From assembly GCA_051251855.1 (NCBI GenBank), contig JBPOGI010000004.1, forward strand, positions 224,001 through 288,000: a stretch of DNA of 64,000 nt. Direction: 5' to 3'. This DNA comes from Roseibacillus sp. Its GTDB lineage: Bacteria > Verrucomicrobiota > Verrucomicrobiia > Verrucomicrobiales > Akkermansiaceae. The translations under genes and the position numbers were made by a program. Position 1 is the first letter of the stretch; every line of letters begins with the position of its first letter. This document shows positions 15,709-46,275 of the stretch, in pieces. The notes beneath the pieces are model-generated. The model saw only the letters and a list, made by a program, of their open reading frames with translations. It did not search any database and was not told the DNA's origin.

Positions 15709-15742
15709 AAAAAATGTCGCTCCGAAAGGCGCGGCATTTTTT
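15709..15742 (+). terminator. Intrinsic terminator, likely bidirectional
   Basis: AAAAAATGTCGC-TCC-GAAA-GG-C-GCGGCATTTTTT just after the PEP-CTERM stop. Confidence 0.8.
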
Positions 15743-15802: not shown

Positions 15803-16092
15803 AGAAGGGTCGACTTCAGTGGAATGGCACTGTGTTAAGCCACCTTATCGTGTCGAGGGCAAGGAAATGGGAGCGTGGTCTTTCCAAGCCGCCACCTTGT
15901 ATTGCCGTCAATTGAGGGTAGGCCTGTTCGTTCCCGAATCCGCTGTTCTTGGGGTGATTCGTCGGCTCTCTTACTAGCGAGATCCTCCCCAGCGGCTAGA
16001 AAAGCCACTCTCCCGAGCCTGCGGCCACTGCTTTTGTAAGCTCCCGATTTTTCGCCTATTACAGTGCCATTCGACAGAACTCAACGCTCCCT
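15803..16092 (-). ncRNA. Candidate large structured non-coding RNA or repeat element, copy A (family unknown)
   Basis: Homologous to 45921-46275. Perfect 12-bp closing helix 15822-15833/16061-16072, extended outer helix and nested internal stems. G-U wobbles mostly favour the minus strand. Confidence 0.65.
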
Positions 16093-16145: not shown

Positions 16146-16174
16146 AAAAAGCGGCCCCGCAATCGCGAGGCCGC
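16146..16174 (-). terminator. Intrinsic terminator of the 16204-19191 gene
   Basis: On + strand AAAAA-GCGGCC-C-CGC-AATC-GCG-A-GGCCGC, i.e. a hairpin followed by a U-tract on the minus strand. Confidence 0.75.
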
Positions 16175-45920: not shown

Positions 45921-46275
45921 AGGAGGATCGACTTCAGTCGTCCACAAACGGTTCCGACCCTCCAAAATCCTTCAACCCGTAGTCTTCGACGACTGAACTC
46001 GAATGGCACTGTGCTGTGTTAAGCCACTCTGTCGTGCCGAGTGCAAGGAGATGGGAGCGCGGTCTTTCCAAGCCGCCACCTTAAAATAAATAATGTTAAG
46101 GGTAGGCCTGTTCGTTTGCGAATCCACTGTTCCTGTATTGATTCGTCCGCCCTCCTCTGAGCGATTTCCACCCCAGCGCCTTAAAAATCCACGCTCCTGA
46201 GCCCTGCGGCCACTTTTTCGTTATCTCCTGATTCTTCACCTATCTCAATGCCATTCGTCTGAATTCGACGCTCCT
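45921..46275 (-). ncRNA. Candidate large structured non-coding RNA or repeat element, copy B (family unknown)
   Basis: Homologous to 15803-16092. Closing helices 45921-45937/46259-46275 and 46000-46011/46246-46257; extra ~60-nt hairpin insert. Confidence 0.65.

What the first reader, a model, noticed from the sequence alone, without database searches (positions are those of the whole stretch)
15803..16092. Two diverged copies of an unrecognised ~290-355 nt highly structured non-coding element (second copy 45921-46275)
Seen: the intergenic stretches 15803-16092 and 45921-46275 align end to end at roughly 75-80% identity (manual count). Invariant blocks include GAATGGCACTGT, GTTAAGCCAC, GGTCTTTCCAAGCCGCCACCTT, AGGGTAGGCCTGTTCGTT and CCTGCGGCCACT. 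On the minus strand both fold into nested helices: a long closing stem (GAAUGGCACUGU/ACAGUGCCAUUC in A, CGAAUGGCAUUG/CAGUGCCAUUCG in B), then GGGAGC/GCUCCC (A), GCCGC/GCGGC, and hairpins AGUGGCU/AGCCGCU (A) versus AGCGU/GCGCU (B), CGAAUC/GAUUCG and an ACC...GGU-closed variable stem. Differences cluster in loops or keep pairing through G-U or compensatory changes. Copy A sits between two convergent genes, each with its own terminator (15709-15742, 16146-16174), so it cannot be an ordinary 5' leader there. I could not find hallmark motifs of RNase P, tmRNA, SRP, group I/II introns, hammerhead, cobalamin or ZTP riboswitches, nor a target-site duplication. Inference: a free-standing, multi-copy structured RNA (possibly a ribozyme or the RNA part of a mobile system) or a structurally complex non-autonomous element.
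Basis: partly seen in the sequence, partly recalled or inferred. Interest (0 to 1): 0.9.

Follow-up and report, generated by a model that had tools for sequence, protein, structure and literature searches.

The report
IS4-type MITE carrying a REP doublet
The two "structured RNA" copies are members of a roughly 40-copy family of miniature, gene-less transposons in this marine bacterium: insertion-sequence ends wrapped around a pair of palindromic DNA repeats and inserted into other palindromic repeats, so this is nested selfish DNA and probably not a new RNA.

Summary
The two copies are real (77% identical) but belong to a ~40-copy repeat family. The unit is ~251 bp (A 15822-16072, B 46001-46256) with IS4-subgroup terminal inverted repeats; the same ends bound full IS4 transposase elements in relatives. 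15 of 17 intact copies have 10-11-bp target duplications, B included; A has hybrid flanks. 11 of 17 sit in a second REP family. The cargo is a REP doublet whose arms match the repeats flanking a RAYT gene here and in congeners; it also occurs without IS ends, once at a site empty in this genome. Three different IS4 end types carry the same cargo. No IS4 transposase was found in this assembly. The scan noted IS4-MITE-plus-REPIN composites before in other genomes; a MITE holding a REP is published (QMITE2). Unexplained: a conserved 10-mer 24 nt behind the left REP. Transcription untested.

The parts
15822..16072 (.). Copy A: 251-bp IS4-type MITE
   Evidence: TIR pair and family alignment
15822..15839 (+). 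Copy A left terminal inverted repeat (IS-like end extends to about 15850)
   Evidence: Fits IS4-subgroup end signature -AATR--------WTW (PMC2266710 Table 1); same end on full IS4 elements in relatives
16055..16072 (-). Copy A right terminal inverted repeat
15870..15892 (+). REP_L: GGAG-tagged REP hairpin with one extra T, left arm of the cargo doublet
   Evidence: 37 sites in the genome; hairpin paired in 241 of 245 cells on the plus strand
15917..15926 (+). Conserved 10-mer GGTAGGCCTG, 24 nt behind REP_L; role unexplained (possible RAYT cleavage or guide site)
   Evidence: 24-nt spacing in 33 of 37 genome copies and 2 of 5 outside rows; GTAG 30 of 35, GCCTG 25 of 35
15992..16013 (-). REP_R: GGAG-tagged REP hairpin, right arm of the cargo doublet, same type as the REPs flanking the RAYT gene at G000 C10:61842-62570
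   Evidence: paired in 178 of 182 cells on the minus strand
15804..15821 (+). 5' part of the target REP (REP_A family) left of copy A, including the 10-bp target at 15812-15821
16073..16091 (-). Inverted REP_A half right of copy A; makes A's flanks hybrid (no direct TSD)
   Evidence: 5 of 10 direct, 7 of 10 inverted
46001..46256 (.). Copy B: 256-bp MITE (left TIR 46001-46023 has a 5-nt duplication; right TIR 46239-46256)
45991..46000 (+). Copy B left target-site duplication
   Evidence: 8 of 10 identical to 46257-46266
46257..46266 (+). Copy B right target-site duplication
45922..45990 (+). Host REP_A doublet of copy B: left REP, spacer and start of the interrupted right REP (which ends at 46267-46274)
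   Evidence: Uninterrupted paralogous doublets at G000 C6:712507, C6:343147, C7:548377
46054..46076 (+). REP_L of copy B
46101..46110 (+). Conserved 10-mer of copy B
46176..46197 (-). REP_R of copy B (worn: substitutions in both hairpin arms)

Best explanation
A non-autonomous IS4-subgroup MITE whose interior is a captured REP doublet (REPIN). Shown from sequence: IS4-type ends, 10-11-bp target duplications, insertion at one fixed point of a second REP family, cargo arms of the type that flanks a RAYT gene, cargo also found without ends. Inferred mechanism: an IS4 DDE transposase acting in trans bound the ~30-bp ends, cut the unit out and inserted it into short palindromic targets; the REP doublet, normally handled as single-stranded DNA by the RAYT, was multiplied as a passenger. 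Three end types, each matching a different IS4 lineage and target, carry the same cargo, so the unit was mobilised by more than one transposase (whether by separate captures or by end replacement is not resolved). No IS4 transposase was found in this assembly and copies are 53-94% identical, so the family is probably inactive now. Copy A most likely arose by recombination between two insertions. The strong fold is a by-product of nested inverted repeats; any effect on the host would be the usual REP/MITE effect on mRNA 3' ends (inferred).
For: Copy number: 40-42 non-overlapping hits at E<=1e-4; depth over the element 438-670 against 27-31 on the flanks in one DNA run. Ends: pattern found in 26 of 251 family genomes, reversed control in 5; TIR-to-TIR elements of 1553-1573 bp encode NF033592 IS4 transposases at 169-200 bits, cut-off 115 (L059, L060, L126, L127, partial L066); size, end signature and 10-13-bp repeats agree with subgroup IS4 (PMC2266710 Table 1). 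One subfamily's end equals the IS end of congener G004 over 27 of 27 and 38 of 41 nt. TSD: peak at 10 bp (mean identity 0.73, other lengths 6-14 at most 0.32); 15 of 17 intact copies at least 80% at 10 or 11 bp; for the 6 copies outside REP_A own flanks score 0.82-1.0 and 0 of 30 cross pairs reach 0.8. Removing unit plus one TSD restores the REP_A text seen at unoccupied sites in several copies. Cargo: REP doublets with the same arms and 3' extensions flank Y1/RAYT genes in G000, G004 (62% identical protein) and G002. Free cargo in G001 at a site where the orthologous gap in G000 is 55 bp. Opposite-strand hairpin pattern. 17 of 37 copies between convergent genes against 177 of 1342 gaps (own crude gene calls).
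Against: No cognate IS4 transposase in the own assembly (95.4% complete), so mobilisation is inferred from relatives. No orthologous empty site for A or B: flanking genes were not syntenic in 5 congeners for the 4 loci tried, and no contig joined across A. A has no TSD and one more copy reaches only 7 of 10; among all 17 copies 56 of 272 cross pairs also reach 80% because many share the same REP target, so TSD evidence in that subfamily is partly target conservation. The RAYT scores 78.7 against the NCBIfam cut-off of 80. REP_L differs from RAYT-flanking REPs by an extra T, and no RAYT flanked by that exact variant was seen. The conserved 10-mer is not explained. The tree of 29 cores is poorly resolved (4 of 26 branches starred); some 'free' cores may be decayed MITEs.
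Confidence: 0.88

Rival explanations
1. The whole 290-bp unit, with its outer REP_A halves, moves as one large REPIN by a RAYT, and the IS4-like ends are only relics.
For: Copy A, C1:1614419 and C1:741470 are flanked by inverted REP_A halves; several RAYT-like genes exist in the genome (8 Y1 matches).
Against: Six intact copies lie outside REP_A with site-specific 10-11-bp duplications; Y1 transposases do not make such duplications (PMC2817692 passage); most REP_A copies have direct, not inverted, flanks; no REP_A was seen beside the 8 Y1 genes (read by eye).
Confidence: 0.05
2. The interior is a functional structured RNA (ribozyme or small RNA) that the MITE spreads.
For: Fold z-scores -4.28 and -3.46. 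A 67-nt module keeps fixed spacing and a possible plus-strand helix (GGTCT with AGGCC, 173 of 175 cells paired, one T-A variant in G001) across diverged copies and a second species. MITE-derived sRNAs exist (PMC5896051, abstract and passages).
Confidence: 0.06
3. A decayed protein-coding gene or plain internal-deletion derivative of an IS4 element.
For: MITEs commonly arise by internal deletion (PMC3189936 passage); one frame is open in 4 of 17 copies.
Against: No frame is open across the family; similarity to the IS elements tested is confined to about 30-45 bp at the ends; no tblastn hit to five IS4 proteins at E<=0.01.
Confidence: 0.01

Closest known systems
IS4 family, subgroup IS4 (De Palmenaer et al. 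2008, PMC2266710; passages and Table 1 read, supplements searched as text only)
   Same: End signature -AATR--------WTW, 10-13-bp direct repeats, strong target specificity; autonomous partners 1.55-1.57 kb.
   Different: No transposase gene; interior is foreign DNA; the paper has 0 occurrences of 'MITE'.
ISRm22 and other REP-targeting ISs (Tobes and Pareja 2006, PMC1525189; passages read)
   Same: IS4-family element inserting at one point of a REP; hybrid flanks explained by recombination between copies, as proposed here for A.
   Different: ISRm22 is autonomous, subgroup IS4Sa, 6-bp repeats, no REP cargo described in the passages seen.
REPINs / BIMEs with RAYT (bioRxiv 10.1101/2021.07.10.451892, PMC3333891, PMC8266576; passages read)
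   Same: Two inverted REPs about 100 nt apart, extragenic, tagged hairpins, matching repeats beside a RAYT gene.
   Different: Tag is GGAG rather than GTAG; left arm has an extra T; part of the spacer is conserved; most copies were spread inside IS4 ends, whereas the preprint treats REPINs and MITEs as distinct classes.
QMITE2 of Coxiella burnetii (PMC5896051; abstract and passages read)
   Same: MITE with TIRs and 7-11-nt direct repeats that contains a REP and also occurs as REP-like truncated forms.
   Different: One GTAG REP that is an IS1111 target; no REP doublet tied to a RAYT, no IS4 partner, no insertion into REPs in the passages seen.
MIC231 mobile insertion cassettes (cited in PMC2266710; modular IS231 passage read, primary papers not read)
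   Same: IS4-family ends carrying passenger DNA.
   Different: Passengers are genes, subgroup IS231, Bacillus cereus group.

Membership tests
MITE | Short, non-coding, multi-copy | tested here: met
   238-264 bp, about 40 copies, no shared open frame
MITE | Terminal inverted repeats shared with an autonomous IS | tested here: met
   partners are in relatives, not in this assembly
MITE | Target-site duplication | tested here: met
   15 of 17 intact copies, 10 or 11 bp; B yes, A no
MITE | Mobilisation in trans / filled-empty polymorphism at orthologous sites | tested here: inconclusive
   No synteny at 4 loci in 5 congeners; no joint across A; paralogous empty targets exist
IS4 family, subgroup IS4 | End signature -AATR--------WTW and 10-13-bp repeats | tested here: met
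IS4 family, subgroup IS4 | Partner transposase of IS4 type | tested here: met
   NF033592 above cut-off for 5 of 5 proteins; subgroup not tested by phylogeny
REPIN (cargo) | Two inverted REP palindromes about 100 nt apart, extragenic | tested here: met
REPIN (cargo) | Same REP beside a RAYT gene | tested here: met
   REP_R type flanks Y1 genes in G000, G004, G002; PF01797 above cut-off, NF047646 78.7 against 80; REP_L is a one-base variant
REPIN (cargo) | GTAG tetranucleotide tag | tested here: not met
   Tag is GGAG; 'most often GTAG' in PMC8266576, so this lowers only membership of the GTAG class
REPIN (cargo) | Cleavage by the cognate RAYT on single-stranded DNA | not testable with these tools
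   Conserved C-T steps noted; no assay
Known structured RNA (any Rfam 15 family) | Covariance-model match | tested here: not met
   0 matches at gathering score in the window; 2 chance snoRNA matches far below cut-off in 8 loci. MISL is recalled, not checked by name: 0 papers for the search, 0 occurrences in the main text of PMC5737381
Structured ncRNA / ribozyme | Covariation-supported fold on one strand | tested here: not met
   shallow, related alignment, R-scape not run
Structured ncRNA / ribozyme | Discrete transcript or self-cleavage | not testable with these tools

The most novel reading that the evidence does not exclude
The cargo is more than a passive REP doublet: the left REP plus the 10-mer held exactly 24 nt behind it form a selected, switchable structure (REP hairpin versus a longer plus-strand fold that hides the GGAG tag), acting as RNA or single-stranded DNA, and IS4 shells of three lineages were reused to spread it into REP sites near gene ends.
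Probability: 0.08. Interest if true: 0.7.

Novelty: new variant of a known kind. Interest (0 to 1): 0.33.

Why it matters
REPINs are thought to spread slowly through their RAYT and to be distinct from MITEs. Here a REP doublet was multiplied inside IS4 ends that themselves target REPs, with three end types sharing one cargo and one shell holding a second REP cargo. That gives a second, DDE-based route for REP spread and a testable system (ends, targets, partner transposases and RAYT all identified). It is also a caution: such nested repeats mimic large structured RNAs. It is lineage-restricted and probably inactive, which limits its weight.

Tried and rejected
Rfam at gathering and E<=10: nothing real. 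Cognate transposase in the own genome: PF01609 0 matches, tblastn best E 0.14, none at E<=0.01. Whole-element DNA search: 2 of 41 genomes, the second (G001) with short REP_L matches only. Module pattern: 0 in genome contigs, 0 in viral contigs, 1 of 301 order genomes; REP_L alone: 3 exact stretches in genome contigs and 1 in metagenome contigs, two of which lack the module; 13 of 251 family genomes at 2 mismatches, but only G000 (37) and G001 (5) with more than 3, and the 6 other loci printed lacked the 10-mer by eye. Expression: no RNA holder listed. Read laying: run X6 covers both flanking genes in pieces but not 15942-16075, with no joint, so not counted as an empty site; X5 holds a 260-nt contig over the element. 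Orthologous empty sites: no synteny. All-against-all column pairing was swamped by purine/pyrimidine skew and not used. Hammerhead, HDV, twister, pistol and intron motifs were compared by eye from recall only, no fit. The idea that the 10-mer is a remnant of a GTAG-type REP remains a resemblance only. Literature searches for an IS4 MITE carrying a REPIN gave none; the library lacks most subscription papers and ISfinder was not searchable, so absence from print is not shown. Rows dropped: 7 of 42 (spacer not 24 nt or no 10-mer), 8 of 37 in the tree (no right REP found), 20 of 37 in the TSD count (ends missing or worn).

Full report
Observation. The two stretches are homologous (76.9% over 286 nt) and copy A folds better than shuffles on both strands (z -4.28 minus, -3.46 plus). 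Rfam gave no match at gathering score in the window and only two chance snoRNA matches in 8 loci. But the genome holds 40-42 copies, and one DNA run shows about 15-25 times the flank depth over the element. Flanks of A are a PEP-CTERM gene and a PATR-repeat gene, convergent; B lies between a GATase-like gene and a GH2 gene, divergent.

Outer layer: IS4-type ends. Aligned copies share 18-bp terminal inverted repeats enclosing 238-264 bp. A pattern for this end occurs in 26 of 251 family genomes. In G220 and G113 two such ends bound 1556- and 1553-bp elements, and G004 holds a partial one; all encode NF033592 IS4 transposases above cut-off. A second end type of the family has its own full elements in G187 and G018; the five proteins are 39-53% identical. 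Table 1 of PMC2266710 gives subgroup IS4 as ends -AATR--------WTW, 1400-1650 bp, 10-13-bp repeats, which fits. One subfamily's end equals the G004 IS end over 27 of 27 and 38 of 41 nt. No IS4 transposase was found in the own assembly (95.4% complete).

Targets. Among 15 copies with both ends at 4 or fewer mismatches, flank identity peaks sharply at 10 bp. With 10 or 11 bp allowed, 15 of 17 intact copies reach 80%. Eleven of the 17 sit at one point of another GGAG-tagged REP family (REP_A, 60 pattern matches), so cross pairs also match often (56 of 272); for the six copies in other targets own flanks score 0.82-1.0 and 0 of 30 cross pairs reach 0.8. Unoccupied REP_A sites and doublets exist; B interrupts the right REP of such a doublet with an 8-of-10 duplication. 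A has a forward REP half on the left and an inverted half on the right; recombination between two insertions is the simplest reading (inference; same explanation for ISRm22 in PMC1525189).

Inner layer: a REP doublet. The interior has two inverted GGAG-tagged palindromes about 100 nt apart. The right one is the repeat that flanks a Y1/RAYT gene in this genome on both sides. The orthologous RAYT genes in G004 and G002 are flanked by doublets that also share the short extensions of the cargo's right and left arms. The cargo occurs without IS ends in this genome (some may be decayed MITEs) and in G001, where a complete end-less doublet lies in a REP cluster at a site whose orthologous gap in G000 is 55 bp. 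Copies are enriched between convergent genes (17 of 37 against 177 of 1342; my own gene calls) and show all four orientations relative to neighbours.

Structure tests. In 35 anchored rows (7 of 42 dropped) the left hairpin is paired in 241 of 245 cells on the plus strand (17 G-T, 1 A-C); in 26 rows the right hairpin is paired in 178 of 182 cells on the minus strand (28 A-C and 0 G-T as read on plus). Each REP thus keeps its structure on the strand that carries its tag, as expected for single-stranded DNA substrates of a RAYT (PMC3333891, PMC8266576 passages), not for one RNA. Consensus folds of 17 copies keep only the TIR stem, the REP-REP stem and a few short helices; 4 of 7 and 4 of 6 pairs with two Watson-Crick types are in the TIRs, where they follow the end subfamilies.

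Three shells, two cargos. Cores cluster by end type (6 label changes against 14.5 shuffled; one end type is a 98/93 clade), but the tree is weak and the order of events is open. One shell in this genome (C1:741470-741716) holds a different, GTAG-type doublet. Of 9 same-ended MITE sequences from 7 relatives, those of G068 and G049 hold other inverted doublets by eye and fold; five genomes' MITEs do not.

What stays unexplained. A 10-mer lies exactly 24 nt behind the left REP in 33 of 37 genome copies and in G001, as conserved as the REP while the bases between vary. It can pair with the left REP's 5' arm on the plus strand (173 of 175 cells), but the columns are nearly invariant and the fold is not dominant (0.28 RNA, 0.03 DNA). 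C-T steps are conserved there (GCCTG 25 of 35), directly behind the left REP (28 of 35) and behind the right REP (16 of 26); E. coli TnpA-REP cuts at C-T, so RAYT cleavage sites are my preferred guess (inference only).

Comparison and verdict. It works like a MITE and meets the sequence criteria for one; the cargo meets those of a REPIN except the GTAG tag. Published neighbours are ISRm22 (IS4 into REPs) and QMITE2 (MITE containing a REP). My six searches found no paper on an IS4 MITE carrying a REPIN, within the library's limits; all papers were seen as passages, none in full. This scan noted the same architecture in two other genomes and a REP-type repeat elsewhere in this genome (unchecked notes, not counted as support); my reading was recorded before those look-ups. 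Verdict: new variant of a known kind, interest 0.33; structured-RNA reading about 0.06.

Noticed in passing
L163, L165, L168, L162 (G002, G007, G004, G001); L169 (G001); L161 (G005): RAYT-like Y1 transposase domains lie in frame inside long housekeeping ORFs in congeners: leucyl-tRNA synthetase in 4 genomes, B12-dependent methionine synthase in one, and an ORF with an adenosine deaminase domain in one. Whether spliced out or kept as a protein insert was not examined.
   Followed up: partly
G000 contigs C2-C5: Short contigs with arrays of small unrelated ORFs separated by a highly repeated unit (top 16-mers up to 31 copies); looks like an integron-type cassette array.
   Followed up: no
G000 C1:741470-741716: Same shell as the finding but with a different, GTAG-tagged REP doublet inside and ends fused to REP_A halves; a similar GTAG doublet lies beside the free cargo in G001.
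   Followed up: partly
G000 C6:435053-435680: Two copies of different end types side by side in opposite orientation.
   Followed up: no
G000 C7:33054-33545: A copy interrupted by about 290 bp of other DNA with its own short inverted ends, possibly a second MITE nested inside.
   Followed up: no
G000 C9:122877-125525: Two tandem long Y1-domain genes (about 427 aa frames) with repeated short spacers and a partial third start; near-identical paralogue at C1:904088-905335.
   Followed up: no
L126, L129 and G000 C6:138983: A further IS4-type end begins directly after the target duplication, suggesting repeated insertion at the same target.
   Followed up: no
L029, L060, L065, L066, L128: IS4 elements and MITEs in relatives insert into GGGGTCAG-type sites, which resemble the flank consensus reported for subclass 2.1 Y1 genes in PMC6006769.
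   Followed up: partly
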